Shown: positions 1 to 61,885 of the stretch, in pieces
Layout: every line of letters starts with the position of its first letter
Position numbering within the stretch: the stretch's first letter is position 1
From: Callorhinchus milii
Taxonomy: Eukaryota
DNA length: 64,000 nucleotides
Reading direction: 5' to 3'
Assembly (NCBI RefSeq): GCF_018977255.1
Contig: NW_024704742.1
Span: 105,092,001 to 105,156,000, forward strand
Position numbers and translations under genes: made by a program
Notes under the pieces: generated by a model
Seen by the model: only the letters and a program-made list of their open reading frames with translations
What the model was told of the DNA's origin: nothing
Database searches by the model: none

Positions 1-280
1 CAAAATATTTAAATTATAATGTCCTCCTTCTTTAATGGCATATAGGGCAATGCATGACAATTTGTTTTTAAAATAAATAGCCAATAATATTACACAAACC
101 GTGCTGCAATATTATAAATATTCTGGATTCAATACTGAAGGAGGCCATTCAGCCCATTTTCTTTCGTCATCGTTTTCTCTTCCAAGAAGCCTTCCATTCT
201 CATCCCAATTCCCTGCTCTTTCGCCTTAATCTCGAACACCCTTCCCTGCATTTGTTTCAGTTTTGAGTCTTTCACATATT

Positions 281-700
281 ATAATATTAATCCTTGAATT
301 TGATATTGCGCCTTATCACATCATTGAGACGTTTCAAAGAGCTTTAGAGGATTTTACTGTAGTGTCTTGACTGTGTATTTGCAGACAAACGCAGTAAACA
401 ATGTCTGCACATTAATGCCCCATAAACGGCCATGAAGTGACTGATCAATTTTATTTGGGGGATTGCTCGGCAGCGACCGGGAGATGCTCCCTTCTCTTTT
501 CGACAGGACCATAGGATCTTTAACCTGAACCGGTAGACGGGACCTTAATTTAACATCTCATTCAAAGGACTGCAACTCCCAACATCCCCAGCACTTCACC
601 GAAGTGTCAGTTTAGACTCTGAGCTCAAAATCGCAACGTGGGGCTTGACCCACAACCTTCTAACTCAGAGGTGAGAGTCCTACCGGCTGAGCCAGGTTGG
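281..700 (-). mobile_element. Deu-domain tRNA-derived SINE (SacSINE1/AmnSINE-like), near full length, diverged
   Basis: Minus strand has a tRNA-like head (TGGCTCAG...GAAGGTTGTGGGTCAAGCCC), a central GAGATGTTAAA...CAGGTTAAAGATCC block and an (ATT)-type tail. Confidence 0.75.
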
Positions 701-2551
701 CAATAATAATTGTATAATTTTTTGTGGTGGCCACAAATAGAAATTGATGCTGGAGAAAGACAGTAGATATGCTGTTGTGAATGTCTGATATCACATGAAA
801 GCAGAATTTCTAATCTGTTCTGACAGTGTTGCTGTTTCACTTTGAGGCTTTCAGATGGAATAAACTTCAAATGTTGCAGTTCTGCTGCAAACTCGTAGAA
901 CACTGGAAGGTTTGCCATGTGGTGCTTTTTGTCTGCAAAGAAAGCCAACTATAGGCTGTCGTGCCTTCTTTTAAAGAATGACTGTGGGTTATAAAATGTT
1001 GGGAGGACTCACCGTGAAAGGTCATTTGTACAGTACAATTGTATTCTCCAATTACACAGACAGTGTTTTGTGATAGATCTGGTTGTAAAAAAAGTGAGTA
1101 TTTATTTCTGATCTGTATCTTAGTAACTGCCTTTTGAAAAGCTTGGTGGTGTGCGAACAGTACGTGTAGAGCACAGTAAAGCATAGGGTCATTGTCCGTT
1201 TCTGAAGTCACATCACAGATGCACAAGAATGGTCGAGATCGTAAGAAACATGAACATCTACTTCCAGCTGCAGTTGATAGACTGCAGAGGAGAAACTACT
1301 CACAAAAAGATAATTGTATCCAAATTCGAGTAAGATTTCAAACTGATTCTATCACATTAGGTGCAAAAGTACTTCCATTTTCCAGTTTAGCAACATGAAG
1401 GCAGCCATAGCATGAAATGAAACAATGTACAGAAAATGAAATGCTTAGGTAAGTACAACACCCTCTTAAAGAAGAGCCAAACCACACCAATTTAGGCCTA
1501 CAATCCATGGTAACTATTTCAAAGGATGACCTTTGACATTTATTTGCTGGATGAACATGGTCAATCAATCCCCATTCTAAAGCAACTTGCAACAGAGAAT
1601 AGAAATTGTTAGACAAGAACTCCTGCTTCCAGATTGCAAAGGAGAAACTAAACTCAAAAAAGAGAAAAACAAAAATAAAATCCTGAACATACAACAACAA
1701 CAAGATTCCATTTATAAAGCGCCTTTCACGTCAGGAGGACGTCCCAAGGCGCTGCACAGTTGGGTCATGACCCGAGCAGGGGGGAAATGGTCAGTGCACC
1801 TAATTACTCCAGCCTTTCCTGGGTAAATACCAGACATAAATTTCTTTTTCCCCCCACTTTTGTAATCCTGATCATTTAACTATAAGACCATTAAACATCA
1901 AATCTCTTTATACAAGAAGGCCTATCTGGTTTGGGTACTCCAAAGCGTAGCAATGGGTTTGTGCATGTGTCAAGACACAAGCTGATCAAAATAAAAACAA
2001 ATTTAATTAGACAAACATTTCCATCCAAGGGGTAGCGGACTCTGAAGGGTAGGACTCCGGGATGGAAATCTGGAGAGTGGGGGCAGTTCATGAAACTGAC
2101 CGATCCTTTTGCTACAACAACATTAATTCTAAGTTGCACTAGAGACACTTTATTCATGTGTCACAGTATTCATATAAGATGCCAACGATAAAACAATTTG
2201 ACTGATTTAATTAGGTTGCTTGATAAGAAAAACATTTAGCATGAAATGTGTCATTAAGACTTCTAAACAATAATCGTGGATCATCTCAGTATAGAAGCAG
2301 TGATGTTCAGAGCAACGCAAACCATCCACTGTGATTATCTGGACAAGAGAAAGAGACTATGCTGCTTATTAGACAGTATAGCTCCACTATAATGAAGTGG
2401 TTAGGATCCATAAAATCCCAAATAGTGCTACAATGGGGCAGGATGTCAGTTGCGCTCCTGTATCCCCTGGGCAAATTCATAAATCTTCTCCTGTGCTAAC
2501 TTGCTCCCTGCTTCAAAAATAACCAACATCTGGATCGTCAAGTCATAATAA
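613..2551 (-). repeat. Inverted duplication, copy 1 (probable donor)
   Basis: Reverse complement aligns to 43649..45479 at ~99% apart from a 102-bp L2 insertion, an 8-bp and a 2-bp indel. Lengths reconcile exactly (615..2551 = 1937; 1937-102-8+2=1829). Confidence 0.97.
1692..1793 (-). mobile_element. 102-bp 3' end of a young L2-type LINE
   Basis: One mismatch to the 3' end of the L2 ending at 31917; (TTG)n tail; absent from the paralogous site at about 44399/44400. Confidence 0.92.
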
Positions 2552-2664
2552 TTTCGCCCACAAATATACAGTCAATTCACTTTATAGTCAATTCTGTGAA
2601 GCGCTTTGAGACGTCGAGAAGACGTGAAAAGCGCTATATCAAATGCAAGGATTATTATTATTAT
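2552..2664 (+). mobile_element. SINE 3' tail fragment
   Basis: GCCCACAAATATACAGTCAATTCACTTT...CAAATGCAAGG(ATT)n shared with full-length SINEs in the window. Confidence 0.85.
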
Positions 2665-5740: not shown

Positions 5741-5974
<234 letters not shown>

Positions 5975-6727
5975 TCAACTTGTTAAAGAGGACTTGCACA
6001 TTTTACAGCACTTCAATTTAAACTGACTGAAATGCAGATCAGAATTATTTTGTAGGAGTCAAGAAAGATTGATCATCATAATGCCCAAAAGATGAACTTT
6101 AGAACAAATTGACACTGAAATTGCCAAGCAGAAGAGTCATAAAAGAAGATGTTCCTCACTTGCAGCAGTGACACACAAAGCTTTTATCTACCTTTTCAAC
6201 TGAGTTATTGTATCAAAATAAAAGCAATGCATCTGTGACTTACTTATGTGAAAATTCTCTTGTTCCCTTCAGGGAACATTCCATTAAATGGTTAATCTTT
6301 TAAAGGTTATCATGCTACCAGTACAGAGCAGTAACATGATTACTAATACGTCATCATAGGCTCAATTCATTTTGAAAGTGAGCCAAAAACTGACACCAAA
6401 TCTACTTTGATCAATGGAAATGAAATAACATTGCGTCAAAACCAATTCACTCAACCTTCTCTGCTACAGAACTATGGTGCAGGGTGAACATCGCACAAAA
6501 AAGGGAGAGGGGAAGGAAGAATCGTATTAAAAAGATCAATATTACCAAAAAGTTTTTTTCCTATTATTCAAACATTGGTGAATAATTTTTAAAATTAAAA
6601 TGACCTTGCTCCACAGGACTTTTGATAAATTAGTTCACTCACTGTCAGCATGAATGAAAGGAGGAAATAGCTTTCATAGATATAAATGTGTTTTTCCTCA
6701 CTGCATATAGTCAGAACATAAAACCTA

Positions 6728-6844
<117 letters not shown>

Positions 6845-7560
6845 CTATAAAAAAACGTTCATTTAATCATAAAATACAGATATCTGAGATGGATGAAAGT
6901 ATCATACAATAAACACAGAGTTGAAAACGAGAGAAAAAAAAACATTAATCTGATGTTGAATTGACTTTAACAACTACTTTGGGGATTATGTCAGAGAAAA
7001 GAATGTCTACAGTACAAAGCAGATTAATAGTATGACTATTCCTAGCAAAAAAAAATTAACAAATGCATGGTTTATGATTAAACAGGCCATGATAATTTGG
7101 AACTGTAAGCCAACATTGAATTGCACATCCGTAACAAACACACAATTACTATATGGATAGTCAAACAGCAGCATTCAGTATTTTTCTCGGTCTATGAGTC
7201 ATGCACAATTTCCTAACTGAGAAGGTAGATAATGAAATTCTTCTCAGGATTCAGTCTGTTCTGCTCCCAAACTAGCTGGTATGCAAGTGCACAGGAGGGG
7301 CCCTCTGCTCATTCCTCTCATTTCACTGCAAGCATCCCAGTGGTGCTCATATGCAGCTCCAGGTGAGAGTGACAGTGTAAGAGCACACTGCTTGCCTGCT
7401 TCTCTATCCTGGAGGTCAGAGGAATGTTGTCTGGTTACCGAAAAAAGTTAAAGAACAAGATTACATATAATTTTTTTTACATTGGAATAATTCTAAGGTT
7501 GCAACAAACTGACATTTAATTCATACCTATGGGTCAATTGATAATTATTTTGTCACTTAC

Positions 7561-7617
7561 TTTGCCCAGTAATTCTGCAAGGGTTACATCTTCATGATTG
7601 AGAACCCATTTCTTGTC
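7561..7617 (-). CDS. FER: FER internal coding exon (57 nt, start of kinase domain)
   Basis: ctttggcatag|GAC AAG...GGC AAA|gtaagt. DKKWVLNHEDVTLAELLGK. Confidence 0.95.
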
Positions 7618-8675: not shown

Positions 8676-9167
8676 TCAAAGGATATATTGTATTCGATTT
8701 ACAGAACTAATACGGAAATTAGTAACATATTTTCACCTCCAGAGCTTTAGCAGGTTATTCAACAACTTGAAAGTTTCAGTTATGTGTATTTCACAAGTGT
8801 TAAGCTGAAGTTTATTTTAAATGCAAACAACCTTTTAAACCAATTTCTGAACACTATTTCCATGCCTTCGTGCTGCTAATAGGCAATCTTGGGTTCACTG
8901 CCTGCTGTTGCCACCTACTGAATGTAGAATGACTGGCTGCTGACAATCAGTAGGAAACAGTTAAGCTATTTTCTCACATATAATGGCTCTTCATCCAACC
9001 TGTGGTTTATTACTTCACTCCAAGGGTCTCAAAATTGACAATACAGCATGTATGTATATAACTCACTCTTTCATTTAAAATAAACTACCACAATTCTGCT
9101 TTGAATGCTTGAAAGACACTTGGTACGTTCAAAACAAAGCTGCATATTCACGCTTTCAACTGAACCT

Positions 9168-9622
9168 AACAACAACAACAAGATTGCATTTATAGAGCGC
9201 CTTTCACGTCAGGAGGACGTCCCAAGGCGCTGGACAGTTGGGTCATGACCCGAGCAGGGGGGAAATGGTCAGCGTGAGGGGAGGGAAGGGAGGGAGCGAG
9301 GAGGGGGTAGAGAGTCGAGAGGAGAGCTGAAGGCACGGTCAAAGAGAAAGGTCTTGAGACCGGCCTTGAAGGAGGAAAGGGAGGAGGCGGCGAAGGCACT
9401 GGGGGATAGAGTTCCAGAGCCTCGGGGCTGAGAGGCTGAAGGCCCGGCCACCGATGGTAGGGCGGTTGGGGCGGGGGATGTGGAGCAGACCGGAGCCAGA
9501 GGAACGGAGGGTACGGACAGGTAAGTAGGAGAATAGTAGGTCGGAGAGGTAGGAGGGAGCGAGGCCGTGAATGGTGAGGATGAGGATCGATCCTCTGGGG
9601 GATGGGGAGCCAGTGGAGTCGA
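9168..9622 (-). mobile_element. Young L2-type LINE 3' fragment
   Basis: LHWLPIPQRID / HGLAPSYLSDLL...GGRAFS..APRLWNS motifs, 3' stem-loop, (TTG)n tail. Confidence 0.92.
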
Positions 9623-15840: not shown

Positions 15841-17502
15841 CAGTCCAAATGGATTATACAGTAGTTGTTGCAATAAGACCAGCAGATCTTAAAACATCAG
15901 GACCTAAAATAAATAGAAGTTTATCCTGACAGAGGTGGATGGGTGAAAGTCTGTATTTTGTTTTTTGTATTTTGTTTTGGTATATAAGATGGAAAGCCAA
16001 CAGGTGCCAAGAGGAACATTTCTCTCACAAAATGTACACTGTGTGCTGGGAGTGCTGAAAGACTTGGGAGAAGTTGTACTGGGTATCATTACATAACAGA
16101 TCTCCAATAATCAAATATATGGTACAACAACTCTGGCTTGTCATAATCCCATATGGCAAATCCCATTTGCCATATGAGATTATGGCAAATTCCCATAAAC
16201 TTGATCTTCCAAGATTATGGGAATTTGCACTTTAAAATGACAAGTTTTTAAAAAATTATACAGTACATTCTTGTCACCACTGTTATTTTCTCAAACATTG
16301 AGGGATTATCAAATTAACTATTGGTTTGAGGCTCCAAAGTAAATTGGGCATATAAAGGACCAATGAGTTCCAAAGTTCTTTTTTAGCAACACAGCAATTA
16401 TACGAACAATATATAAGCAATACAGCAATTATATTCCGACATAATAATTATAGAATGAAATGCAAACATTCATCCCATCCCTCTCTGTCAGGATAAACTT
16501 TTAATTGTTTTTAGGTCCTAATATTTTAAGACCTGCTGATCTTTTAAGACCTGCTAAACTAGGTGGGAGAGTAAGCTCTGAGGATGATGCAAAAAGATTG
16601 CTATGGGATATAGATAGGCTCGGGGAGTGGGTGAGTAGGTGGCAGATGGAATTTAATGTGGGGAAGTGTGAAGTTATTCACCTTGGTAGAAAAAATAGAA
16701 AAACAGATTATTTTCCAGAGGGGGAGAGATTAGATAGTGTTAGTGTTCAGAGGGATTTGGGTGTCCTTGTACACCAGTCTCAAAAAGTTAGTTCGCAGGT
16801 GCAGCAAGCAACTAAGAAGGCGAACGGCATGTTAGCGTTCATTGCAAAAGGTTTAGAGTACAAGAGTAGGGAAGTCTTGGTGCAACTGTATAGGGCCTTG
16901 GTGAGACCTCACCTAGAGTATTGTGTGCAGTTTTGGTCTCCTTATTTAAAAAAGGACATACTTGCCCTAGAGGGGGTGCAGCGTAGATTCACTCGGTTAG
17001 TTCCTGGGATGAGGGGACTGACCTATGATGATAGGTTGAATAAACTAGGGCTGTATTCTCTAGAGTACAGAAGAATTAGGGGAGATCTTATTGAAACATA
17101 TAAGATTCTTAAAGGGCCGGATAAAGTAGACACTGAGGGTCTGTTTTCCCTGGTAGGAGAATCTATAACCAGGGGTCACAGTCTTAAAATTAAGGGTCAG
17201 CCTTTTAGAACAGAGTTGAGGAAACATTTCTTCACTCAGAGGGTAGTGAATTTATGGAATTCACTACCCCAGAAGGCTGTAGATGCTCAGTCCTTGAACA
17301 TCTTCAAGGCTGAGACTGATAGATTTTTAAAAAACAGAGCGATTAGGAGGTATGGGGATTAGGGCAGGTAATTAGAGAGGTCTGAAGATCAGCCATGATC
17401 TTATCGAATGGCGGGGCAGGCTCGAGGGGCCAAATGGCCTACTCCTGCTCCTAATTCTTATGTTCTTATTGCAACAACTACTCTATAATCGGATTTGAAC
17501 AG
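15841..17502. mobile_element. Non-autonomous element with ~120-bp terminal inverted repeats, interrupted by a CR1
   Basis: 15841..15960 is the reverse complement (~80%) of 16458..16543 joined to 17468..17502. Confidence 0.7.
16554..17469 (+). mobile_element. CR1-type LINE, 5'-truncated ORF2 C-terminus plus 3' UTR
   Basis: Uninterrupted ORF with W..RWQMEFNVGKC, RDLGV, LYRALVRPHLEYCVQFWSP and FFTQRVVNLWNSLP; (TTCTTATG)-type tail. Confidence 0.96.
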
Positions 17503-21889: not shown

Positions 21890-22510
21890 GAGACATCTGC
21901 ATTGATTTAGTTGAGATGTTAATATGAGGTCCCGTCGACCTGTTCAGGAGTGGGTGGGGGCGTGGCTGCTATATTTGATGGGTTAGGGTTGGGGACAACT
22001 CAAAAAGAGAAGGGAGTTTCTTCCAATGTCAGTGGTCAACAATCCTCCAGATAAAAAATGGCTATTTACTTCATTGCACTGTTTGTGGGACATCACATTT
22101 TAATTTAATTCAATTTATTTTACAGTATATTCTGTGAAGCACTTTTGAGACATCTAGACGCCCTGAAAAGCACTATGTCAAATGCAAGGATTATTATTAT
22201 TATTGCGGTGCTCAAATTGGCTGCCACATTTGCCCACAAACAGCCATGAAACAATTGATTTATCTTTGGAATTGTTGGCCAGGACACCAGGAGAAACTTC
22301 CTTCTTTTTTCAAACAGTGCCACGGGAATCTTTAACATCCATCTGAACAGGTAATCAGGACCTTGATTTAATATCTCAAACTCCAAAAATGCAGCATGCC
22401 TTAGGACTGCACTGGAATGTCAACCTGGACTGTGAGTCCAAAATCCCAACATGGCGCTTGAACCCACAATCTTCTGACTCAGAGGCAAGAGTGCTATCAA
22501 ATAAGCCAGA
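21890..22510. mobile_element. Composite of two oppositely oriented Deu-domain SINEs plus a nested younger SINE tail
   Basis: Plus-strand Deu fragment 21890..22236 carrying an (ATT)n tail insert at about 22095..22204, fused to a minus-strand copy about 22231..22510 with a tRNA-like head. Confidence 0.7.
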
Positions 22511-31273: not shown

Positions 31274-31917
31274 ACAACTGCATCCAGAACTCTGCAGCTC
31301 GTGTACTGTCCCGCACCAGGCTTCGGGACCACATCACTCCCACCCTCGCTCGCCTCCACTGGCTCCCCATCCCCCAGATGATTGATTTCAAGATCCTCAT
31401 CCTCACCTACAAGGCCATTCACGGCCTTGCTCCCTCCTACCTCTCCGACCTACTATCCCCCTACCTTCCTGCCCGTACCCTCCGTTCCTCTGGCTCCGGT
31501 CTGCTCCACATCCCCGCCCCAACCGCCCTACCATCGGTGGCCGGGCCTTCAGCCTCTCAGCCCCGAGGCTCTGGAACTCTATCCCCCAGTGCCTTCGCCG
31601 CCTCCTCCCTTTCCTCCTTCAAGGCCGGTCTCAAAACCTTTCTCTTTGACCGAGCCTTCAGCTCCCCTCTCGACTCTCTTCCCCCTCCTCGCTCGCTCCC
31701 TCCCTTCCCTCCCCTCACCCTGACCATTTCCCCCCTCCTCGCTCCCTCCCTTCCCTCCCCTCACCCTGACCATTTCCCCCCTCCTCGCTCCCTCCCTTCC
31801 CTCCCCTCACCCTGACCATTTCCCCCCTGCTCGGGTCCTGACCCAACTGTGCAGCGCCTTGGGACGTCCTCCTGACGTGAAAGGCGCTTTATAAATGGAA
31901 TCTTGTTGTTGTTGTTG
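31274..31917 (+). mobile_element. Young L2-type LINE 3' fragment with a 46-bp tandem triplication in the 3' UTR
   Basis: IQNSAARVLSRTRLRDHITPTLARLHWLPI...FKILILTYKAIHGLAPSYL; 3' stem-loop; (TTG)n tail. Confidence 0.95.
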
Positions 31918-34197: not shown

Positions 34198-34370
34198 ACT
34201 ATATATAAACAATAAACCTTACAGCCTGCCGAAGAAGAATGCTAGATATGAAAACGCCAATGAGTTAAGTCCATTGTTCAACGCCTCTGCAGAAACAACT
34301 GGCACCCGAGTTCCCAATGGTTCTTCATTTGTGAACTAGGTTACAAGCAACTGACTTAAGAGAAATGTCT

Positions 34371-34603
34371 GAAAACAAAAACAGAAGTCACTGGGAACAC
34401 TCAGCAGGTCAAGCAGCATCTATGGAGAAAGGAAAATGAGTCAACGTATCGGATCCACGACCCTTCATCAGGAGTTCTGACAAAGGTCGTGGACCCAAAA
34501 CGTTGACTCACTTTCCTTTCTCCACAGATGCTGCCTGATCTGCTGAGTGTTCCAGTGACTTCTGTTTTTGTTTTCAGATTTCCAGCATCTGTAGTATTTT
34601 GCG
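34371..34603. mobile_element. Palindromic insertion, probable Penelope-like (PLE) inverted-terminus remnant
   Basis: ~103-bp inverted arms (34368..34471 / 34477..34578), a 25-nt unpaired extension, and a 12-bp direct repeat AGAGAAATGTCT on both sides. The PLE assignment is inference. Confidence 0.75.
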
Positions 34604-39372: not shown

Positions 39373-39550
39373 ATTAATAATCCTTGCATTTGATATAGCG
39401 CTTTTCACGTCGGGAGGACGTCCCAAAGCGCTTCACAGAACACACTGTAAAGTGAATTGACTGTATATTTGTGGGCGAACGCGGCAGCCAATTGCGCACA
39501 GCAATGTCCCACAAACAGTCGTAGATTGAAAATGACCGATTTATTATTGT
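39373..39550 (-). mobile_element. Young SINE 3' half
   Basis: Near-identical reverse complement of 4736..4912. Confidence 0.9.
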
Positions 39551-40414
39551 TGAATTAAATTAATCTAAGCAAGCTATTGGTCATTGTATCATGCAATTCA
39601 AACTAGAGTGATACTGGGTTTGATTTCATGATTCTTGTAGACAGGATTACAACCATGTACTTTGAAAGCAGCTGCTTATGTTTCCCAGTTGGAATTCTGT
39701 GTCAAAGGTACATCGTCCAGCCCTTTTCCATGTCTTTCAAACCCTATTTGCCTCTACAATTAGTGTCTCTCATGATCAGATTGTGTTTCAGAAGAATACC
39801 TAAAACTGCTCTTTGATAGAATTTAAACTCCATTAAGGAGCATCTGTACTAACAAGAAGTCAGGTTATATTTATGCAGTATGTTATTTGAGTCAAACAGT
39901 GACTTTTTAGCATAGCTGCTGAGTCTGAATAAAGCCATTTTCAGCTTTTACTATAAGACCACAGGTACAAACTACTGCAAACAAACTTTCCTGCTTCCTA
40001 CAGTCTTACAATGACTGGTTGGAATAATAGCAAAAATAACTGACAGATTAAATTATAGGAAAGAAAACAATGCTTGACAGAGGCAACAGATTACTATTGG
40101 TCTGCTTGTGGGCTTCTAAACAGGTTTTATTGTACATTAATCCATCATACTTTCTACAAAGGATTGTTATTACAAATCTAGTATATCTTTCTACTTTCAT
40201 TAATCTAGGTGTCATCGAACACTGGTCTTTAGTAAAATGTATAACCTAATGCTATTTGAAGGCAATTATTGAATAAATGTTGAACCCAATTGTTCTTCAT
40301 ACAATGCATAGTTGTCAGGTTTCTTGGTTGAACCTTACAGTGCTAAATGTGAGACTTCAAACAAGACCAAATATGTTTAGCTTTTGAATGCCTTTTCCAG
40401 TGGATGAAAACTAC

Positions 40415-42483: not shown

Positions 42484-43551
42484 ATATGCATTAATGACTG
42501 GTCTGTAAATGCATACAGCAATTTTATTAATGAACTTCACTTAAAAAAAGCTTAATGGTGTAAATGGGAACATTTCGATTGCCAATTCCATAGTATCACA
42601 TTTTCTGGATTGCATTAAAATGAAATATTTAAGATATACAGTATTCTCCTGGTAGAAGGAACCAAAGTAGTGTCCTTCAAACGTTGTTTTTGCCACAGGC
42701 AGTTATTACTTCAAAACCCCAGAAGAGTATTTCAGACAAGACATTATTTTACCCATAATAAAACAAATAACCTTAATAGCACTGAAACTGGCTTCTTTGT
42801 CAATGTAAGGTCAGTGTTGTTAAGACATTAAAATGAATTGAATACAATTGAAAGTACTCTTTCATTATTAAACACCTCTGGGCATGTGCTCTTCCAAGGT
42901 TAGTCTAGGAATCTCAGAGGTTCTCTTTTCTTGAATAAATATTATGCATCAGTGCATCAACATGTTTCTTGTGGCAAGGAAGAAGATAGGGTCAGAAAGG
43001 GCCTAGAAGATAATGTCCACAGTTCCACAGCTCATATATTCCAGAGAAAATAAAACCTTTGCTCAACGTAATGAGTTCCTGAAAACATTTTGTCCCTAAT
43101 TGTAAATCACCTGTTTAAGTAAATGGTGAACTTTGTAAATCTCATCACACTTGTGTTTCAACTTTCATTGCCACTCCAAGGTACTGGAATGAGTTGTTAC
43201 TTCCTTCCTGGCTTCACTCCTTCCTCTCCCTCTGTTCCCTCCAATCTAGATTCCGCTATTCTTAAAGTACAGAGACTGCCCTGATCAAAGTCACAAATGA
43301 TATTCTTTCCATCTGTGAAACATTATATTATTAGAATATTTTAGAAGACATAAAACTTAATAATTACTTATTTTTTTTACATAGATTCTGAACTGGTAAT
43401 ATACTTATTAATCATTTGTATACTGTATTTTGAAGTTCCTATTTTGCTATGAATTAAATTGAAAATCTGTAGTGTTCATGCATATTGGAATAAAGTTTCA
43501 ACATTTCATGATTAATAATTTTCATAATTAATAGTAATTTTAGTAACTGTT

Positions 43552-43648
43552 AATAATAATAGTTGCATTTGATATAGCACTTTTCAGGTCTCAAAGCACT
43601 TCACAGAATTGACTGTAAAGTGAATTGACTGTATATTTGTGGGCAAAA
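43552..43648 (-). mobile_element. SINE 3' tail fragment at the left junction of the duplication
   Basis: AATAATAAT...TGCATTTGATATAGCACTTTTCA...GTATATTTGTGGGCAAAA; homologous to 2552..2664. Confidence 0.85.
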
Positions 43649-45479
43649 TTATTATGACTTGACGATCCAGATGTTGGTTATTTTTGAAGCAGGGAGCAGG
43701 TTGGCACACTTATGAGTTTGCCCAGGGGATACAGGAGCGCAACTGACATCCTGCCCCATTGTAGCACTATTTGGGATTTTATGGATCCTAACCACTGCAT
43801 TATAGTGGAGCTATACTGTCTAATAAGCAGCATAGTCTCTTTCTCTTGTCCAGATAATCACAGTGGATGGTTTGCGTTGCTCTGAACATCACTGCTTCTA
43901 TACTGAGATGATCCACGATTATTGTTTAGAAGTCATAATGACACATTTCATGCTAAATGTTTTTCTTATCAAGCAACCTAATTAAATCAGTCAAATTGTT
44001 TTATCGTTGGCATCTTATATGAATACTGTGACACATGAATAAAGTGTCTCTAGTGCAACTTAGAATTAATGTTGTTGTAGCAAAAGGATCGGTCAGTTTC
44101 ATGAACTGCCCCCACTCTCCGGATTTCCATCCCGGAGTCCTACCCTTCAGAGTCCGCTACCCCTTGGATGGAAATGTTTGTCTAATTAAATTTGTTTTTA
44201 TTTTGATCAGCTTGTGTCTTGACACATGCCCAAACCCATTGCTACGCTTTGGAGTACCCAAAGCAGATAGGCCTTCTTGTATAAAGAGATTTGATGTTTA
44301 ATGGTCTTATAGTTAAATGACCAGGATTACAAAAGTGGGGGGAAAAATAAATTTATGTCTGGTATTTACCCAGGAAAGGCTGGAGTAATTAGGTGCACTA
44401 TGTTCAGGATTTTATTTTTGTTTTTCTCTTTTTTGAGTTTAGTTTCTCCTTTGCAATCTGGAAGCAGGAGTTCTTGTCTAACAATTTCTATTCTCTGTTG
44501 CAAGTTGCTTTAGAATGGGGATTGATTGACCATGTTCATCCAGCAAATAAATGTCAAAGGTCATCCTTTGAAATAGTTACCATGGATTGTAGGCCTAAAT
44601 TGGTGTGGTTTGGCTCTTCTTTAAGAGGGTGTTGTACTTACCTAAGCATTTCATTTTCTGTACATTGTTTCATTTCATGCTATGGCTGCCTTCATGTTGC
44701 TAAACTGGAAAATGGAAGTACTTTTGCACCTAATGTGGTAGAATCAGTTTGAAATCTTACTCGAATTTGGACACAATTATCTTTTTGTGAGTAGTTTCTC
44801 CTCTGCAGTCTATCAACTGCAGCTGGAAGTAGATGTTCATGTTTTTTACGATCTCGACCATTCTTGTGCATCTGTGATGTGACTTCAGAAACGGACAATG
44901 ACCCTATGCTTTACTGTGCTCTACACGTACTGTTCGCACACCACCAAGCTTTTCAAAAGGCAGTTACTAAGATACAGATCAGAAATAAATACTCACTTTA
45001 TTTACAACCAGATCTATCACAAAACACTGTGTCTGTGTAATTGGAGAATACAATTGTACTGTACAAATGACCTTTCACGGTGAGTCCTCCCAACATTTTA
45101 TAACCCACAGTCATTCTTTAAAAGAAGGCACGACAGCCTATAGTTGGCTTTCTTTGCAGACAAAAAGCACCACATGGCAAACCTTCCAGTGTTCTACGAG
45201 TTTGCAGCAGAACTGCAACATTTGAAGTTTATTCCATCTGAAAGCCTCAAAGTGAAACAGCAACACTGTCAGAACAGATTAGAAATTCTGCTTTCATGTG
45301 ATATCAGACATTCACAACAGCATATCTACTGTCTTTTTCCAGCATCAATTTCTATTTGTGGCCACCACAAAAAATTATACAATTATTATTGCCAACCTGG
45401 CTCAGCCGGTAGGACTCTCACCTCTGAGTTAGAAGGTTGTGGGTCAAGCCCCACGTTGCGATTTTGAGCTCAGAGTCTA
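43649..45479 (+). repeat. Inverted duplication, copy 2 (probable inserted copy)
   Basis: Matches the reverse complement of 613..2551. Flanked by direct repeat TATTTGTGGGCAAAA at 43634..43648 and 45478..45492. Confidence 0.97.
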
Positions 45480-46619
45480 TTTGTGGGCAAAACGATTAAT
45501 GATTAAAGCTGCAGGTAATATCCCAAACTTTGCCAGGAAAATTAAATCAGATAGAGTTTCTTTTATTTCTGCTGTAATGTTAAAAGGTGAGGGATCCTAT
45601 CTCAACTTGACAGTCTCAAGTGCAACAAAGGTCTGAGGAGGGCAATTTTTAAAAAGCTGTGTTCTGTCAAGGTGTGAAATGATCTTTGTAAAACTAGGAT
45701 TTGCTGTTCAATGACGTGACATCTGTAGGAATCTGGCACCAACTTCCTCTAATTTGTTGGACCCTCTTTTAAGGTTATTGCAAAGGCTGTTGTTCTTTTT
45801 GTGTTACCATTATTGCGCTTGTGTTAAACATCTTACTTAAATGTATTAACTAGTATTAACCTAATTGCTATGATGAAGCGCATTTCTAACAGGGTTGCAT
45901 TGTATAACAATTGGCGCCAGAGAGAGAGTGTTTTTTGGTGAGTATCCATACCAGAATAGAATTCCACATATGCATGTCACCTAGGCATGAACATTTCCTT
46001 GAGCGTTAAGTGATTTTTACATGAGCAGTTTATCAATTAGCAAAAATAAACAAAATGTCCTGTTTCAGAAATAAACATATTAGCCATTTTATGTGAGAGA
46101 GAAAAAGGAAGCAAAGCACATTTACAATGAATATGAAACGAGTAAACAACTGGAGCACTATGAAATGATTTACCACAAGTTTCAAAGCAAATTTCAGAAC
46201 AAACAGTCTAACTCATTTGAAAATGATTTTCTAATCGTGAAGGTTACGCACAAAGTAAATCCAGCCATGCAATTTATTCTTCAACACACCCGCTGCCATT
46301 CCTCCTTCATTATGTTCTGCCAGCTACTGAACACGTAATAATTAATTAAGATTAATGGTAACTTAATCAACTGAAACTTTAAATTCCAAATCAAAGGAAT
46401 TGCAACACTGTATCATCACTGAAACCACAGCTTTTATTTAAAGCTCACCTACATTAAAAAAATCTAACTAATGAGTGGCATTTATAGACAATTAGATGCT
46501 AATTCATTTAAATTCTAATTAAATTATCACATAAAAAGCTAAAATTAGCAACTTCAGTATGTGACTATTTCTTTCCAAGGACACAAAAAAGAACTCTTCA
46601 ACTCTAAGCATACAAGAAT

Positions 46620-48350
46620 CTGCTGACTTCTCCTCCCTTACCTCCTCCACTCTCGATTCCCTTGCTCCCATCTCTTCCCGGTAAGTCACCATGGTACACC
46701 AGCCACCTCCGCTCCCTTAAAGCACAGGTGCGTGCCACTGAACACAACCGACTTAAATCGAACTTAATGGTCCATCGGCAGATCTGGCTGGATCTTATCA
46801 AATCTTACCACTCTGCCCTCGCCTCCACTAAATCTTCATTCTACTCTAAGACAATCTTGGAGGCCAAGGACACCCCAGGTTCTTCTTCTCCATCACCAAC
46901 CGGCTCCTCCATCCAGCCTGTGAGGCAATGCTGAACTTTTCAAATCCAAAGTTGAGGGGATCCGATCAGCTGCCTCTGCCCTTCTGTCTAATACATCCAC
47001 ACCCCCATATCCCCCTCCCACCCCGGCCCCTACCCATCCCTTCCTCTACACCTTCGAACTTATCTTCTACTCCTCTCTCATCACCAGTATAACCTGCATG
47101 AAACCAACCACCTGCTCCCGTGACCCCATCCCTACCCCCTCTCACCTCCCATATCCACCTCTTTGCCCCTCTACTCACAGACATCATAAACCTCTCCCTG
47201 TCCACTGGTACTGTTCCCACCCCATTAAGAACGGTCATCATCACTCCTATCCTTAAAAAACCCTCCCTGGACCCATCTCTAATCCCAAACTACCGCCCTA
47301 TCTCCAACCTCCCTTTCCTCTCCAAGGTCCTGAAATGAGTTGTTGCTTCCCAGCTTTGCTCCTTCCTCTCCCACCACTCCCTTCTCGAACCCCTCCAATT
47401 GGGTTTCCGTGCCACCCACAGCATAGAAACAGTTCTGGTCAAAATGACAAATGACATTCTGGCCACCTGCGACCAGAGCTCCTTCTGCCTCCTCGTCCTT
47501 TCTGCTGCCTTCGACACCGTTGACCACTCTATCCTCATCCACCTCCTCTCACCTCAACCTCCATGGCGCTGTCCTTGACTGGTTCAGATCATACCTCTCA
47601 CACCGCTTCCACTTAATCTCCACAAACGATTTCTCCTCTAGCCCCCGCACCGTCTCATACGGTGTTCCTCAGCGCTCTGTCCTTGGTCCCCTCCTCTTCA
47701 ATATCTATATGCTCCCTCTTGGTGACATCATCCAGACATCATCCGTAATATCGACCGGCTCTGCCACTGTCTCACACTGCAGGCCGCCAAAACCTTCATA
47801 CATGCCTTCATTACATCGAGGCTTGACTATGCAAACTCCTTGCTTGTCAGCCTCCCCGACTCCTCCATCTATAGGCTGCCGATCATCTAGAACTATGCTG
47901 CTCGTTTCCTCTCCCGCACCAGGCTCCATGACCCTATAATCCCCATCATCGCCCGACTCCACTGGCTTCCCATCACACAGAGGGTAAAGTTCAAGATCCT
48001 GGTTCTCACCTTCAAAGCCCTCCATGGTCTTGCTCCCCCCTACCTCTGCGACCTCCTAACCCCCTACCATCTTACCCACTCCCTCCACTCAGGGGGTTCC
48101 GGTCTGCTTCATTTCCCCCCCCCCTTGCTTACCCCACCATCAGCGGGAAGGCCTCCTGCCACTCTGCCTCACCCTTTGGAACTGCATCCCACAGTCCCTC
48201 CACCTCGCCCTCTCCCTTGCCTGCTTGAAGACCCATCTCAACAACCTCCTCTTCAACCGTACTTTCGATCACCCTGCTTCCCCCCCTCCACCCTCCAACC
48301 CTCCCCAATCCCGAAGTGAAAGGCGCTATACAAATGTAATTTTGTTGTTG
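46620..48350 (+). mobile_element. L2-type LINE, degenerate RT region to 3' end
   Basis: PWYT, IITPILKKPSLDP...[36 protein letters not shown]; frameshifts and internal deletions. Confidence 0.93.
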
Positions 48351-51361: not shown

Positions 51362-51529
<168 letters not shown>

Positions 51530-51589
51530 TTAACCAGAAAAAGAAAACAATGAGCAAATCAAGCAGCACAACATGGACTCGTATTGCAC

Positions 51590-52597
51590 TTGTCACATAT
51601 AACATCTCACCACCAAGCGCAGATGGAATTTTGGGAAGGAGATCCAGAGAGTTGGGGTATAGTGGATGAAAGCTCAGGTTCTAATAGTAGAGGTGAAGGA
51701 TATGGAAAAGGGCCAAAGTTGGCAGAATTCAATATTTATTGAGATTCTAAGATCTGCCACAATCTAATGAACTGGTGGAACAGGCGGGCTGGGCTGATTG
51801 ATCTCCTCATTTTGCGGAGTTGCGGAGGTGGGGGAAGGCAGAGTAGGTCATGGCACGGATGTGGGGTAGAAAGGATGGTGGAAGTCAAACAAGACGCCAA
51901 GGTTCTGGACTGGCTGAGTAAGGTGGAGTGTGCATCCATGGATGGTGATGCTGTCAGCGCCTGAGGTGTGGAGGTGCTGATGGGAGCCAATCAGGAGGGC
52001 CTCGGTCTTGTTGCCATTCAATTGAAGAAAACTAGTTCTCATCCAGGACTTGATGTCTGACAGATATTCTGTCAGGACAGCAGTGGTTCTGGAGTCAAGG
52101 TTGGAGGCAGAGAGATAGAGTTGGGTGTCATCCCCATTAGTGTGGAAGTTGACCCCATGTCTGCGGATGATGTCACCAAGAGGGAGCATATAGATATTAA
52201 AGAGGAGGGGACCACGGACAGAGCCCTGAGGAACACCGCACAAGACGGTACGGGGGCTAGAGCAGAAACCGTTTGTGGAGATGAAGTGGGTGCGGTGTGA
52301 GAGGTACGATCTGAACCAGTCAAGGACAGAGCCGTGAAGGTTGAGGAGAGGTGGTGGATGAGGATAGAATGGTCATCGGTGTCGAAGGCAGCACAAAGGT
52401 CAAGGAGGCAGAGGAACAGAATATAATTTGTCACTTTGACCAGGGCTGTTTCTATGCTGTGGGTGGCACGGAAACCCGATTGGAGGGGTCCGTGAAGGGA
52501 GTGGCGGGAGAGGAAGGAGCAAAGCTGGGAAGCAACAACTCGTTCCAGGACCTTGGAGAGGAAAGGGAGGTTGGAGATGGCACGATAGTTTGAGAAT
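51590..52597 (-). mobile_element. L2-type LINE RT fragment
   Basis: [40 protein letters not shown] and [15 protein letters not shown] motifs. Confidence 0.92.
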
Positions 52598-52602
52598 CCT
52601 TT

Positions 52603-52957
52603 TAAAAATAAAGAGATTCAATAGGGTAGATACAGAGAAACTATTTCCTCTGGTAGTGGAATCCAGAACAAGGGGGCATAATCTTAAACTTAGATCTAGG
52701 TAATTTAGGAGTGAAATTAGGAGGCAGGTTTTCACCCAAAAGTACTTGGAAACCTGGAACTCTTTCCCGCATAAGGCTGTGGATGCTGGATCCATTCACA
52801 TGTTCAAAACGGAGATAGATAAATATTTGTTAGGTCAGAGTATTGAGGGATATGGGGCAAGAGCGGGTAACTGGACTTGGAAGTACAGATCAGCCATGAT
52901 CTTATAAAATGGCGGAACAGGCTCGTGAGGCAGAATAGCCTACTCCTGTTTCTATGT
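52603..52957 (+). mobile_element. CR1-type LINE 3' fragment
   Basis: Similar to 17110..17469 (TRGHNLKL, WNSFP; GATCAGCCATGATCTT...CCTACTCCTG 3' UTR). Confidence 0.88.
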
Positions 52958-54359
52958 TAACCTAACAGTAATTGGATTTTTAAAAAAAAAAAAAACTGTC
53001 CTTAATCCTTTCAAAAATAAAGATTTCCACAACATCTGCCATGCTGATCACAGTTTATCAAAGAACAAGCTCCCAGCTGAGCTACATTTTAGCTTTTTGT
53101 ACAACAAGGAGACAGAAGGAAGATGTAAATATTACTGTTACGAGTGCATAACCCAACATCTGTGATCCATATTTCCACATCATCTCGGAAGAATTGTCTG
53201 CTGAAGTGCAGGGATGCAGCTGTTACAAGGACCGGTGAGTGTCAATTTTAGCCTCTATGGTCAAATTGCAACCAATTGTAAAATCAGTTAGAAATATTAA
53301 ATTGTTATTGTGGATATTTGTAGACTCCATAACACACAGAGGACCAAGGAACATCTACCCGGATTAGATTTTCTGGTACAATATTTCTCAATTAGACCCG
53401 ACCTGTTATTAATCAGAATCATTGGAACAAGAAATAGATAAAATTTCTTGAGGCAAAATGCTTGAGCCTTATCACAATCTACAAACACTTTAAACAAGAA
53501 ACTGCATAATATATTGAGAACATGAATATAATTAATTTTCTTAGGTATAGTACGGAAGATTCTTGTCATTGCAGAAGTGAGCTATTGACTAATAATCTGA
53601 ATGGAGAGAAAAGAATCTAATAACCATAAAGGAATAATTGCAATAAAAAGATGTTTGAGGCACTATACCGAAGATTCTACAAAAAAACATCTGACATTAA
53701 ATAGCAATTGAACGTTTGACACATAAAACATGCACACTCTCCATTCCACGCAGAATATACACTTTTCCACACACAAGCTCGGGATTATAAAAATGCTAAT
53801 AAGGTGCATAAATTGCTGCCTTGGCAATTGGAAAGTAGAGACAATGAATACAATTCATGAGGTGGATAATGAGAAAGGATAAATAACGTAGTCCACATGC
53901 AATCAACAACTCCCTTAAAACAATCCATCCAAGGCTTTGTACTTGGGGTGGACCCAAGAGAATCAGAGCAACTTCCCCCATAAGCAATTTAAAAACAAAT
54001 CTATTTATCAAAATTGACAATGGTTCAAACAAAACACTTTTACAGCAATAAATCAATGCTTTGCATGGTGCTCCAAGACATAGTATCATAATGTAAAGGG
54101 ATGTATATTTAGAGTTAGCACCTGCTGAATTCCTGAACTTAGTCATGGTAGATGGGAGTATCAAGCAGAGTGCTAAGCACCTCTCCTTGGGAGGAGGAAT
54201 CACCAGATGTGTTGGTTTAAACATGCCTCCAGATAGTTAAACGGAACATTGATGAGTAGCCTCATAAGGAACGTGTGAGTGAAGAATGGGAGGGACGTTG
54301 GCTCAAAGAAATCTTATTCTAATGCGATGCAGACTTTAATATATTACTAACATTTCCCT

Positions 54360-55008
54360 ACAACAACTTGTATTTATATAGCACCCCTGACGCAGGGCAG
54401 TGTCCCAGAGCGCTTGACAGTGGTGGAGCATGGTGCCGAGGTGGGTGGAGGTGACTGCAGGCACAGTCGAATAAGAAGGTCTTCAGTCACAACCTGAAGA
54501 TGGGGAAAGGGACATGGCGGAGGGATAGAGGAAGAGTGTTCCAGAGTTTCGGGGCTGAAAGCGCAGCCACCAATGGTGGAACGGAGGGCACGAGGGACAT
54601 ACAGAAGCCAGTCAAACGGAAACAGCGGGTTGTGGGCTGAAGGATAAGAAGGTCAGAGAGGCAGTGCAGGTGAGTATGTGGGTGAAGTTTTGGATCAGCT
54701 GGATCTTGTTCATGGTGGAACTGGGTAGACCAGCAAAGAGTGCATTTGAGAAGTCGAGTCGGGAGGTAACGAACGCATGGATAACTGTTTCAGCTGCATT
54801 GGGGGATGAGGTACGGTCGGAGGTGGGCAATGTGGAGGAGGAAGGCGATATTGGTCAGGGACTGAATGTGGAGAACAGCTATGGATCAAACCTATCATCT
54901 CGGTTGCGTACTGCTTTGGTAAGTCTGAGGGATAGGCCAGGGAGGTTAGAGCCACAGGATAGACAATGTTGACGGGAGCCAATGAGTATGGCTTCTGTGT
55001 TGTCAACA
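54360..55008 (-). mobile_element. L2-type LINE 3' fragment
   Basis: AAETVIHAFVTSRLDFSNALFAGLP motif; TTG tail at 54360. Confidence 0.88.
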
Positions 55009-55960
55009 TTTTCGGTCTAGTAAATTACCAGTGTATCACAGCTCGCTAATGTTTACTACAACACTATTCAGATTCATAAACATTTAAGTTTACTTTTGAA
55101 AACATTCCTATCTGGACACTGTTGGTCCCTGGAATTAGTTGAGAAGGGTAGATAAAGGACATTAAAGTCATTTAACCATATAATAAAAACCTGGCAATTT
55201 GTTCCCCCCAAAGAGTTTGGAGCTCACACCACTTTTCTGTACTCAATCTTGTGACAATACTCCTGAAGGATAGTCTTCTAGAACTGTGACTAGTCTTAAC
55301 AATCATCAACAAATTCTGATTTTTCAAAAACCTGAACTATTTAAGGGTGTATAATTAAGTCGATCTTCAGGATCATTAAGACAAAGAAAACATTTTGCAG
55401 TGAAACATAAATCAATTGCCATCTTGAAGATTGACTGAACAGTGAATACTGAGGGCTGAGCTCAGTATGAAGGCCAATAATGATGACCAGATGATGTTTT
55501 GGAAAAATAAGGATATGCGAAGAGAAGTCTTTGCGGGGCATGGCACGGACAAATCAAAAGCCAACATGCCAATTTTTCCAATGTAATTATCTTAAAAGAG
55601 ACACTATATTTGTATTTTGTAGATTCTTAGCTCTCCAGCCTTAAACTGCTAGTACATGGGAAATGATCCTGCGCAGAATATGTTAAATAACTATCGAGGC
55701 AGCTGCCTTCATTTATAAGAATATATAGCACTGGTAAACTTAGAGAGCTACATAAGTATCAACTAATATCCCATGACACAAATGTCAATTCCTGTTGAGT
55801 AAAGTTTTATTATTTTGTAAATAACGTGGCTTTAGTCAGTGATTTAAACTGGTGGATAATCATATTCAACTCAAATATGCACAAAGGATGACAAAGGATG
55901 AAAGGAAATAAGTGCACAAATCATGTCATCTTCACGTTTCAAATGTTTTTCTTGTAATTA

Positions 55961-56176
<216 letters not shown>

Positions 56177-59969: not shown

Positions 59970-61885
59970 AACAACAAGATTACATTTGTATAGCGCCTTT
60001 CACGTCGGGAGGACGTCCCAAGGCGCTGGACAGAGTTCAGCATTTCAGACCCAAGCTGGGGTTGGGGGGGAAGCGAGGGGAGGGGAAGGGGGGTGGCTGA
60101 TGGCATAGTTGAAGAGGAGGGTCTTGAGGCGGGACTTGAAGAAGGATAAAGAGGGGGCGAGGTGGAGTGACTGGGGGATGGAATACCAGAGGTTGGGGGC
60201 AGTGTGGCTGAAGGCTCTCCCACCAATGGTGGGGCGGGTGGGTCGGGGGATGTGGAGCAGCCGGAGCCGGCTGAGCGGAGGGAACGGGCGGGTTGGTAGG
60301 GGTTTAGGAGGTCGCGGAGGTAGGGTGGGGCGAGGCCATGGAGGGCTTTGTAGGTGAGGACCAGGATCTTGAACTGGATCCTCTGAAGGAAAGGGACCCA
60401 GTGGAGTTGGGCGAGAGTGGGGGAGATGGGGTCATGGAGTTTGGTGCGGGAGAGGACACGAGCTGCAGAGGTCTGGATTATCTGCAGCCTGTGGAGGGAG
60501 GAGTTGGGAAGGCTGACAAGCAGGGATTTGCATAGTTGACCCTAGAGGTGATGAAGGCATGAACAAGAGTTTCAGTGGCCTGAGGGGTGAGGTAGTGGCA
60601 AAGTCGGGCGATGTTACGGAGGTGAGGGAAGGCAGAGCGGGTCATGGCTTGAATGTGGGGGAGGAAAGACAGTTGAGGGTTGAACAAGACACCCAGGCTC
60701 CTGACTGGCTGGTGAGTTGTCCTGTGCAACTATGGAGGTTGATGTTGCCAGAGCCTGAGGTGCTGAGGCGCTGGTGCGAGCCAATCAGGAGGGCCTCAGT
60801 CGTGTTCACATTTAACTGTAGGAAATTATAGTTGATGTCTGACAGCAGTCTGTCAGGAGAGCAGTGGTCCTGGAGTTGAGGGCGCAGACAGAAAGAGAGT
60901 TGGGTGTCAACCGCATACATGTGGAAGTTGACCCCATGTCTGCGGATGATGTCACCAAGGGGGAGAAGTAGATATTAGAGAGGAGAGGGCCAAGGACAGA
61001 GCCCTGGGGGACGCCAGATGTGAAAGTGCGGGGGCTGGAGGAGAAACCGTTAGAGGCAACAAAGTGGATACGGTGAGAGAGATAGGAATCAAACCAGGCA
61101 AGTGCAGATCTGTGAAGATTGAGTAAAGTGGAGAGGCGGTGTATGAGGATGGAGTGGTCGACACTGTTGAAGGCAACAGAGAAGACAAGGAGGACAAGGA
61201 GGCAGAGGGAGCCCTGATCACAGATGTTCAGAATGTCATTAGTGACTTTGACCAGCGCTGTTTGTATGCTGTGGGCAGTGCAGAAGCCGGATTGGAGGGG
61301 TTCCAAGAGGGAATGGCAAGAGGGAAAGGAGCGGAGCTGGGTCGCAACGACGCCTTCCAGGACCTTGGAGAGGAATGGAAGGTTCGAGATGGGGCGGTAG
61401 ATGGAGAGGAGGGATGGATCCAGGGAAGATTTTTTCAAGATGGGGGTGATGACAGCTGTTTTTAGGGGGATGAGAACTGAACCGGTGGACAGGGAGGGGT
61501 TGATGACATCGGACAGGAAGGGGGGGCCAGAAGGTGGAGCTGGGAGACGAGGAGAGAAGTGGGGATGGGATCGAGGGAGCAGGTGGTGGGTTTGAATTTG
61601 CAGACAGTCGTGGTGAGGGAGGAGGGAGAGATAGGGTCGAAGGAGTACAGGGGGAATGGGTGGGGGGTGGGTCATGAGGGAGAGGTGATGTGGGGGTGGC
61701 TGTGGACAGGGCTGAGTTGGCTGAACGTATCCCTTTGATTTTAGACTCGAGGAAGTCCAGCATATCCTCACAGTTGGAGTTTGAGGAGAGGATGGGCGAG
61801 GTATGGGAAGGTGGACGGAGGAGATGGTTAGTGGTGGAAAAGAGAAGCCGGGGCTCATCCTTTGCCACCAAGATAACCTTGAAGT
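59970..61885 (-). mobile_element. L2-type LINE, RT region to 3' end (~1.9 kb)
   Basis: YRPISNLPFLSKVLE, QSGF...HSIQTALVKVTNDIL, GVPQGSVLGPLL, YAVDTQL; tail at 59970. Confidence 0.95.

What the first reader, a model, noticed from the sequence alone, without database searches (positions are those of the whole stretch)
43634..45492. 1.83 kb templated inverted insertion into a SINE tail, with a 15-bp direct repeat and readable direction
Seen: 43649..45477 (1829 bp) is the reverse complement of 615..2551 at ~99% by eye, 41 kb away in another intron of the same gene. It is bounded by TATTTGTGGGCAAAA at 43634..43648 and 45478..45492. Both repeats carry GGGCAAAA, whereas the other locus has GGGCGAAA. 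The left junction sits in ~100 bp of homology between two SINE tails (43552..43648 vs 2552..2664), and the right junction has only a 2-bp TA microhomology. The SINE at 281..700 is complete at the first locus but cut after its tRNA head here. Inference: 615..2551 is the donor, and a break in a resident SINE tail was repaired by copying from a homologous SINE tail and its flank. The mechanism could be SDSA/MMBIR-like DNA templating or target-primed reverse transcription of intronic RNA. I saw no TIRs, LTRs, poly-A or transposase/RT coding in the segment.
Basis: partly seen in the sequence, partly recalled or inferred. Interest (0 to 1): 0.78.

Follow-up and report, generated by a model that had tools for sequence, protein, structure and literature searches.

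The report
SINE-guided backwards copy inside FER
A 1.8-kb piece of one intron of the FER kinase gene of a cartilaginous fish also sits backwards in another intron 41 kb away, likely pasted there when a break inside an old short repeat was repaired from a similar repeat; it is real but a known kind of repair scar with no shown function.

Summary
Real. 43649-45477 is the reverse complement of 615-2551 (16 substitutions in ~1,835 columns) between two exact 15-bp repeats. Public contigs bridge the right junction in 2 of 6 runs and run through it in 2 more. No empty allele was listed, the left junction is unbridged, and no outgroup was available. Direction holds: the donor SINE is intact across the breakpoint, and the recipient tail is an older copy (0 CpG versus 6). 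The donor tail is the best match among 18 window copies. The host gene is FER on the minus strand, the wrong strand for tail-primed reverse transcription of pre-mRNA; colinear exons exclude an inversion. Best reading: DNA-templated, SINE-homology-primed copying closed by 2-nt microhomology, a repair-mediated duplication (PMC2671141), longer and more distant than most. The scan noted similar events on other DNA of this genome (e1-9016059, e1-9360949, e1-9070442, e1-9301245; unchecked). Interest 0.25.

The parts
43649..45477 (-). Inserted copy, reverse complement of donor 615-2551 without the 102-bp LINE end (to 45479 if the TA microhomology is counted)
   Evidence: interior contigs about twice flank depth in 4 of 4 runs; three haplotypes at 44447/44451 in X3
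43634..43648 (+). Left copy of the 15-bp direct repeat: the 5' end of the resident SINE tail and inferred priming end
   Evidence: the listed differences of X2 record 1 and X5 record 17 account for all their other letters, none at 43645 (inferred from counts)
45478..45494 (+). Right copy of the 15-bp repeat (45478-45492) plus 2 more family-type bases (45493-45494) that the donor tail lacks; first 2 nt are the microhomology
   Evidence: bridged by X3 record 20 and X4 record 30
43551..43648 (-). Resident, old, 5'-truncated SINE 3' tail (0 CpG, 11-bp deletion)
   Evidence: X2 record 10 runs from unique flank into it with no other letter
45392..45479 (+). Copied tRNA-like head of the donor's SINE, cut at the right junction
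   Evidence: head identity as tRNA-like with A and B boxes is read by eye, no Rfam hit at gathering score
613..2551 (+). Donor segment, in the FER intron that follows exon 5848-5942
277..700 (-). Older full-length SINE, intact across the donor breakpoint at 613 (Deu-domain type by recall, not tested)
   Evidence: X5 record 22 continues into donor sequence behind 45479
1692..1793 (-). 102-bp young LINE 3' end, donor only, likely a presence/absence polymorphism
   Evidence: 99% to 31813-31914, linked through 9160-9622 to the RT-bearing element at 59970-61773; loose ends in X2 and X6, unbroken contigs in X3 and X5
2552..2660 (+). Donor SINE 3' tail, near the family majority (6 CpG); inferred invasion site
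5848..7617 (-). Three FER kinase-domain exons between the two copies: 7561-7617, 6729-6844, 5848-5942 (268 nt in all)
51377..56176 (-). Two FER SH2 exons upstream of the insertion: 55973-56176 and 51377-51499
   Evidence: (best PDB match human FER, E 2.8e-35)

Best explanation
A 1.83-kb stretch of one FER intron is present in inverted orientation inside an old SINE tail in another FER intron, likely copied there once from DNA when a broken or stalled end in that tail paired with a similar tail 41 kb away. Shown: two copies, junction anatomy, intact donor, older recipient tail, gene strand. The donor was left unchanged, and the 102-bp LINE end was absent from the template allele or came later. 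No function is needed or shown.
For: Donor SINE continuous across 613, copy cut there. Tail pair 7 substitutions in 93 columns vs 16 in 1835 in the segment, Fisher p 6e-5; CpG 0 vs 6 in the tails, 22 vs 21 in the segment: the recipient tail was in place and decaying long before the copy. Both repeats share the recipient's CpG-decay letter. Family-type bases continue 2 nt past the right repeat only at the recipient. Donor tail has 2 mismatches to the junction-side 50 nt, the other 17 window copies 5 or more, including copies 2.6-5.3 kb away. No poly(A), terminal repeats or coding. FER is on the minus strand. Right junction bridged in X3 and X4, interior depth about twice flanks; three haplotypes in X3. 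Microhomology plus target duplication without poly(A) is a listed class of repair-mediated duplication, 5 of 39 proximal cases (PMC2671141 Table 1).
Against: No empty allele and no outgroup were seen, so the pre-insertion state is inferred. No contig bridges the left junction to unique flank. The 2-nt extension has a 1-in-16 chance of arising at random. The best-match ranking covers 18 window copies of a family with some 300,000 copies (PMC5499810), and could partly reflect conversion after pairing. The two tails share a variant seen in 2 of 19 window copies and 6 bases after the microsatellite, which this model leaves to subfamily kinship or chance. In human data, duplications more than 5 kb from their donor were often retrocopies (17 of 29 interchromosomal cases had poly(A/T)).
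Confidence: 0.8

Rival explanations
1. RNA-templated copy. A LINE reverse transcriptase copied intronic RNA into a staggered cut in the resident tail, either primed at the tail on an antisense RNA, or primed on FER pre-mRNA at the 2-nt match and closed by tail homology.
For: A 15-bp target duplication and a truncated far end with microhomology look like target-primed reverse transcription. RT-bearing LINE remnants and a very young LINE end are in the window. RNA patches at breaks are described (PMC5110952, parts 1-2 of 4 read).
Against: Tail priming needs plus-strand RNA; FER and the neighbouring SINE are on the minus strand. Priming on pre-mRNA would start from 2 nt and reach a homologous tail by luck, and the copy keeps no donor-type tail letter. 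No poly(A) and no TTTT/A-type site as in class 1 TSIPs.
Confidence: 0.08
2. Old duplication, later homogenised. Tail and flank were duplicated long ago, and gene conversion between the inverted copies recently reset 615-2551 to 99%, leaving the tail diverged.
For: The tails share a variant seen in 2 of 19 copies and 6 bases 3' of the microsatellite. 14 of 24 variant letters in the contigs are in neither assembly copy, some in 4-5 of 6 runs, which conversion could spread.
Against: Does not explain the 15-bp repeat, nor the family-type bases at 45493-45494 that the donor lacks. Derived changes sit almost only in the recipient tail. Identity stays exact up to the right junction, with no diverged edge there.
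Confidence: 0.06
3. Co-insertion. A SINE retrotransposed to 43.6 kb and picked up 1.83 kb of templated DNA at its 5' end in the same event, as described for LINE 5' junctions.
For: The copy abuts the 5' end of a truncated SINE tail. Earlier scan notes report such events in this genome (unchecked).
Against: The tail is far older than the copy: 0 of 6 CpG left and an 11-bp deletion, against 0.87% divergence in the copy. The direct repeat lies inside the tail, not around tail plus copy.
Confidence: 0.03
4. Ordinary mobile element or misassembly.
For: The left junction is not bridged by any contig. No whole genome was held to count copies.
Against: Interior contigs are long and unbranched at about twice flank depth, not hundreds of times as over the SINEs. 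Right junction bridged in 2 runs whose contigs differ from the window by a few letters. Three haplotypes in one run. The copies differ at 16 sites plus indels.
Confidence: 0.02
5. SINE-guided inversion of the 41 kb between the copies, with the 1.83 kb duplicated at its edge.
For: Inverted homologous tails bound the middle segment. Earlier notes read similar structures that way (unchecked).
Against: The three FER exons inside the segment have the same strand and the right order relative to the two exons outside it.
Confidence: 0.01

Closest known systems
Repair-mediated duplications (Pace, Sen, Batzer, Feschotte 2009, PMC2671141; parts 1-4 of 8 and passages read)
   Same: A transposon copy interrupted by DNA with one donor on the same chromosome; donor intact; microhomology plus target duplication (their range 4-21 nt); no poly(A); intronic; found also in zebrafish and chicken.
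   Different: 1.83 kb and 41 kb away, against at most 619 bp and under 5 kb in their confident set (their distant set reached 3,424 bp but was not confidently classed). One junction lies in about 100 nt of SINE homology rather than 2-9 nt of microhomology. No orthologous empty site was available here.
One-sided invasion / SDSA and FoSTeS-MMBIR template switching (PMC4888836 and PMC9299229, passages; the original one-sided invasion papers seen only as reference entries)
   Same: One end copies from a homologous or microhomologous template and then returns to the original molecule.
   Different: Described from induced breaks and disease rearrangements; here a single switch out and back, of unknown trigger.
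Templated sequence insertion polymorphisms, classes 1 and 2 (Onozawa and Aplan 2016, PMC5110952; parts 1-2 of 4 read)
   Same: Non-mobile DNA copied into a new site with the donor intact; target duplication as in class 1; microhomology as in class 2.
   Different: Fits neither class: no poly(A), signal or TTTT/A site for class 1, yet a target duplication, which class 2 lacks. Donor is in cis and chosen by repeat homology. Not shown to be polymorphic.
CmiSINE / SacSINE1-CM and L2-2_CM of Callorhinchus milii (Luchetti et al. 2017, PMC5499810; part 2 of 6 read)
   Same: tRNA-headed SINEs of two ages sharing a 3' tail; the paper gives 78.6% similarity of that tail to the L2 tail, and one search gives 78% between the SINE tail and the 102-bp LINE end.
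   Different: Consensus sequences were not readable, so family names and species are an inference.

Membership tests
Repair-mediated duplication (Pace 2009) | Insertion of 50 bp or more that interrupts a transposon copy | tested here: met
   1829 bp between two parts of one SINE tail, overlap 15 bp
Repair-mediated duplication (Pace 2009) | Exactly one other copy in the genome | tested here: inconclusive
   Two in the window; contig depth about twice flanks in 4 of 4 runs, but no genome to count in
Repair-mediated duplication (Pace 2009) | Break-repair junction marks (microhomology, filler, deletion, with or without target duplication) and no poly(A/T) | tested here: met
   2-nt microhomology, 15-bp duplication, no poly(A/T)
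Repair-mediated duplication (Pace 2009), confident proximal class | Donor within 5 kb | tested here: not met
   41 kb; it falls in the paper's distant intrachromosomal group, so it works like this class but is not in the proximal set
Repair-mediated duplication (Pace 2009) | Empty orthologous site in a relative or another allele | tested here: inconclusive
   All 24 runs carry one organism label; no empty-site joint among those listed for 6 runs, lists cut
Class 1 TSIP / LINE-made retrocopy | Target-site duplication of 5 bp or more | tested here: met
   15 bp
Class 1 TSIP / LINE-made retrocopy | Poly(A) tail, polyadenylation signal, TTTT/A insertion site | tested here: not met
   None at either junction
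Class 1 TSIP / LINE-made retrocopy | Template strand is transcribed | tested here: inconclusive
   Host gene is on the opposite strand for tail priming; antisense RNA not testable with contigs
Class 2 TSIP | End-joining marks and no target-site duplication | tested here: not met
   Microhomology present but so is a 15-bp duplication
Transposable element | Terminal repeats, coding capacity or many copies with the same ends | tested here: not met
Repeat-mediated inversion with flanking duplication | Segment between the copies is inverted | tested here: not met
   FER exons inside and to the right are colinear
CmiSINE / SacSINE1-CM | Match to published consensus sequences | not testable with these tools
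   Supplement not readable; architecture fits the text

The most novel reading that the evidence does not exclude
SINE tails are both the break target and the donor selector: a LINE-type endonuclease makes a staggered cut in a cognate tail without inserting, and repair from the best-matching tail in the same gene copies kilobases of flank. In a genome with about half a million tail-sharing SINEs this would be a regular source of long, near-perfect inverted repeats around exons, here three FER kinase exons, open to RNA pairing, back-splicing or exon-flipping recombination.
Probability: 0.15. Interest if true: 0.55.

Novelty: new member of a known kind. Interest (0 to 1): 0.25.

Why it matters
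As one event it is a clean teaching example: donor, direction, priming end and closing end can all be read, and the gene strand argues against an RNA template. It extends the length and distance of repair-made duplications beyond the confident human set. It leaves 1.08-kb and 0.76-kb near-perfect inverted repeats around three FER kinase exons (268 nt, not a multiple of three), which could pair in pre-mRNA or allow an inversion that would break the gene; neither is shown. It would matter more if a genome-wide count showed SINE-tail-primed copies to be a common class in this lineage.

Tried and rejected
Whole-genome copy count: no genome held. Outgroup: all 24 runs listed carry one organism label. 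No RNA holder listed on record; X5 and X6 are only guessed to be RNA. Empty allele: no joint skipping 43649-45492 among the 15 shown (101 not shown) or the 2 listed, and no loose end at 45478 among 23 shown (16 not shown). X2 has no contig over about 45537-45738 and X6's listed flank contig starts at 45554; holes prove nothing. Error-prone synthesis near the priming end: 4 substitutions and an 8-bp gap cluster at donor 2476-2501, but an X2 contig carries the donor's 8 bases with the copy's letters at 43699 and 43716, so two of the changes look like standing variants and the rest like one complex indel; the two halves of the segment do not differ significantly (p 0.06). A third template for that cluster: none in the window. 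RNA editing of the duplex: T>C places 4 of 12 in X5 and 2 of 8 in X6 against 3 of 10 and 3 of 13 in X2 and X3; contigs drop rare variants, so no verdict. Pfam on 39 of the 71 frames of 90 aa or more: RT hits only in LINE remnants outside the segment. Papers: listings showed no report of this locus or of tail-primed duplications in a chimaera; one search returned none; only listings were seen, and subscription papers are not searched. PMC11724358 (passages) concerns short polymerase-theta insertions and was not used further. The supplement of PMC5499810 could not be read and may bear on the SINE names.

Full report
Observation. The duplication is in the sequence as described. Self-BLAST gives two inverted blocks, 613-1691 against 45479-44399 and 1793-2660 against 44399-43551. 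The 15-mer at 43634-43648 and 45478-45492 is exact, occurs twice in the window, and differs from the donor at one CpG position. The right junction has 2 nt of microhomology, 4 of 5 with one mismatch. The segment has no terminal inverted repeat, no Pfam hit in its 4 long frames and no Rfam hit at gathering score.

Setting. Five exons on the minus strand, each with AG and GT ends, encode FER: 55973-56176, 51377-51499, 7561-7617, 6729-6844, 5848-5942 (best PDB match of the first is human FER, E 2.8e-35). The copy lies in the 43.7-kb intron between the second and third, the donor in the intron after the fifth. The repeats fit the description of CmiSINE, SacSINE1-CM and L2-2_CM in the elephant shark (PMC5499810, part 2 of 6 read; 78% between the SINE tail and the LINE end against 78.6% in the paper). 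The consensus sequences were not readable, so species and family names are inferred; 'Deu domain' is recalled, not tested.

Is it real? No genome was held. The run search listed 24 runs, all one organism; I laid 6 of them, all contigs, from 2 studies. The right junction is bridged by the 31-letter rule in X3 (45415-45818) and X4 (45415-46671); contigs of X1 and X5 run through it with 28 and 23 letters left of the repeat; X2 and X6 have no listed contig there. Interior contigs have depth 20.9-23.8, 13.1-14.5, 13.2-13.7 and 12.4-17 in X1-X4, against unique-flank contigs of 8.8-12.7, 6.3-7.6, 7.3-8.0 and 6.5-9.5. Depth is not a copy number, but it fits two loci and not a family. X3 shows three haplotypes at 44447/44451, which needs at least two loci. 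The left junction is not bridged to unique flank: contigs stop at 43580 and restart at 43622-43635 inside the high-copy tail. For X2 and X5 the listed differences account for all other letters of the contig, none at 43645, so the copy-type junction letters seem present (inferred from counts). X5 also shows the donor continuing into its intact SINE behind 45479. No empty allele was listed; the lists are cut. An empty allele should break the contig at the junction, so unbroken contigs in 4 of 6 runs suggest the copy is common or fixed (inference). One run could be the assembly's source; the X3 and X4 junction contigs differ from the window by 1 and 3 letters.

Direction. Another copy of the older SINE (22328-22509) aligns through donor 613 at 71%, so the donor is intact and the copy is cut. 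At the recipient, family-type sequence continues 2 nt past the right repeat, which the donor tail lacks (1 in 16 by chance). The recipient tail is old: 7 substitutions in 93 columns against 16 in 1835 in the segment (Fisher p 6e-5), and 0 CpG against 6, while the segment keeps 22 against 21. Both repeats carry the decayed letter, so decay preceded the doubling. Of 18 tail copies in the window the donor is the closest to the 50 nt beside the junction, 2 mismatches against 5 or more, although several lie within 3-5 kb.

Age. 14 of 24 variant letters seen in the contigs are in neither assembly copy (the complex site 43709 left out), so allelic variation is of the same order as the donor-copy difference. 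The 102-bp LINE end is 99% identical to 31813-31914; X2 and X6 show it as loose ends, X1 and X4 break there, and X3 and X5 run through unbroken, so it is likely still polymorphic. With the two rates quoted in PMC5499810 the 0.87% gives about 4 or 27 million years as loose upper bounds. The cluster of changes at donor 2476-2501 first looked like error-prone synthesis, but an X2 contig has an intermediate haplotype, so I do not count it as such.

Mechanism. Shown: the anatomy above. Inferred: a plus-strand end at 43645-43648 paired with the donor tail, copied 1.83 kb of DNA, and rejoined the right flank at TA, 13-15 nt behind its start. A staggered break repaired by one-sided strand annealing and a fork switch that returned early both give this; I cannot separate them (PMC4888836, PMC9299229, passages). 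Confidence 0.8. Tail-primed reverse transcription needs plus-strand RNA, the opposite of FER and of the adjacent SINE; priming on pre-mRNA from 2 nt is possible but leaves the donor choice to luck (0.08). Co-insertion with the SINE fails on the tail's age (0.03). An inversion fails on exon colinearity (0.01). Against my reading: the two tails share a variant found in 2 of 19 copies and 6 bases after the microsatellite, which hints at an older link and keeps old duplication plus conversion alive (0.06); and no empty site was seen.

Known kinds. It works like the repair-mediated duplications of Pace et al. 2009 (PMC2671141, parts 1-4 of 8 read): an interrupted transposon, one intact donor, microhomology with a target duplication in 5 of 39 proximal cases, no poly(A). 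It fails their 5-kb proximity criterion and exceeds their largest confident case of 619 bp, and one junction uses about 100 nt of repeat homology. It fits neither TSIP class (PMC5110952, parts 1-2 of 4). The lead to the Pace paper came from an earlier scan note. Earlier notes describe at least four similar events elsewhere in this genome; I did not check them, and they are not support. My paper searches (listings only) showed no report of this locus.

Verdict. A real, well-readable, young repair scar in FER introns; a new member of a known kind; no function shown. Interest 0.25. The boldest reading not excluded is that SINE tails act as both cut site and donor selector and regularly make kilobase inverted repeats around exons in this genome (probability 0.15, interest 0.55 if true); only a genome-wide screen can test it.

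Noticed in passing
window 2552-2668 and 43545-43648: The donor and recipient tails share a variant present in 2 of 19 window copies and 6 identical bases just after the microsatellite; unexplained.
   Followed up: partly
window 1692-1793: Very young 102-bp LINE 3' end with a 1-nt ambiguous junction and no clear target duplication; likely a presence/absence polymorphism among 6 runs.
   Followed up: partly
window 47283-47739 and 52157-52595: Inverted LINE fragments, 86.7% over 459 bp, flank FER exon 51377-51499; another possible RNA duplex around an exon.
   Followed up: no
window 4734-4910 and 39375-39551: Young SINE pair, 98.3% over 177 bp, inverted; with the 4596-4917 copy carrying a tRNA-like head (Rfam RF00005 at 4603-4665).
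   Followed up: no
window 34368-34578: Palindrome of about 211 bp, 88% self-complementary; fold-back or miniature element.
   Followed up: no
window 31679-31833: Tandem repeat with a 48-nt shift inside the 3' region of a young LINE copy.
   Followed up: no
window 16505-17362: 285-aa open frame, no Pfam hit at E 0.01; looks like the C-terminal part of a CR1-type ORF2 by recall.
   Followed up: no
window 45443 (donor about 649): Family contigs have one more T here, in the apparent B box of the SINE head, so the copied Pol III promoter is probably decayed in both copies.
   Followed up: no
window 43630: X2 and X6 contigs show a different letter just before 43631 in the tail; probably a donor-side variant, unphased.
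   Followed up: no
window 43770-43801: A 32-nt piece of the segment also lies in contigs of another locus in at least 4 runs; a small dispersed repeat.
   Followed up: no
window 45537-45738: No contig of X2 covers this flank; may be a filter effect or another allele.
   Followed up: no
window 10903: Single N in the assembly, in the long intron, not near either copy.
   Followed up: no
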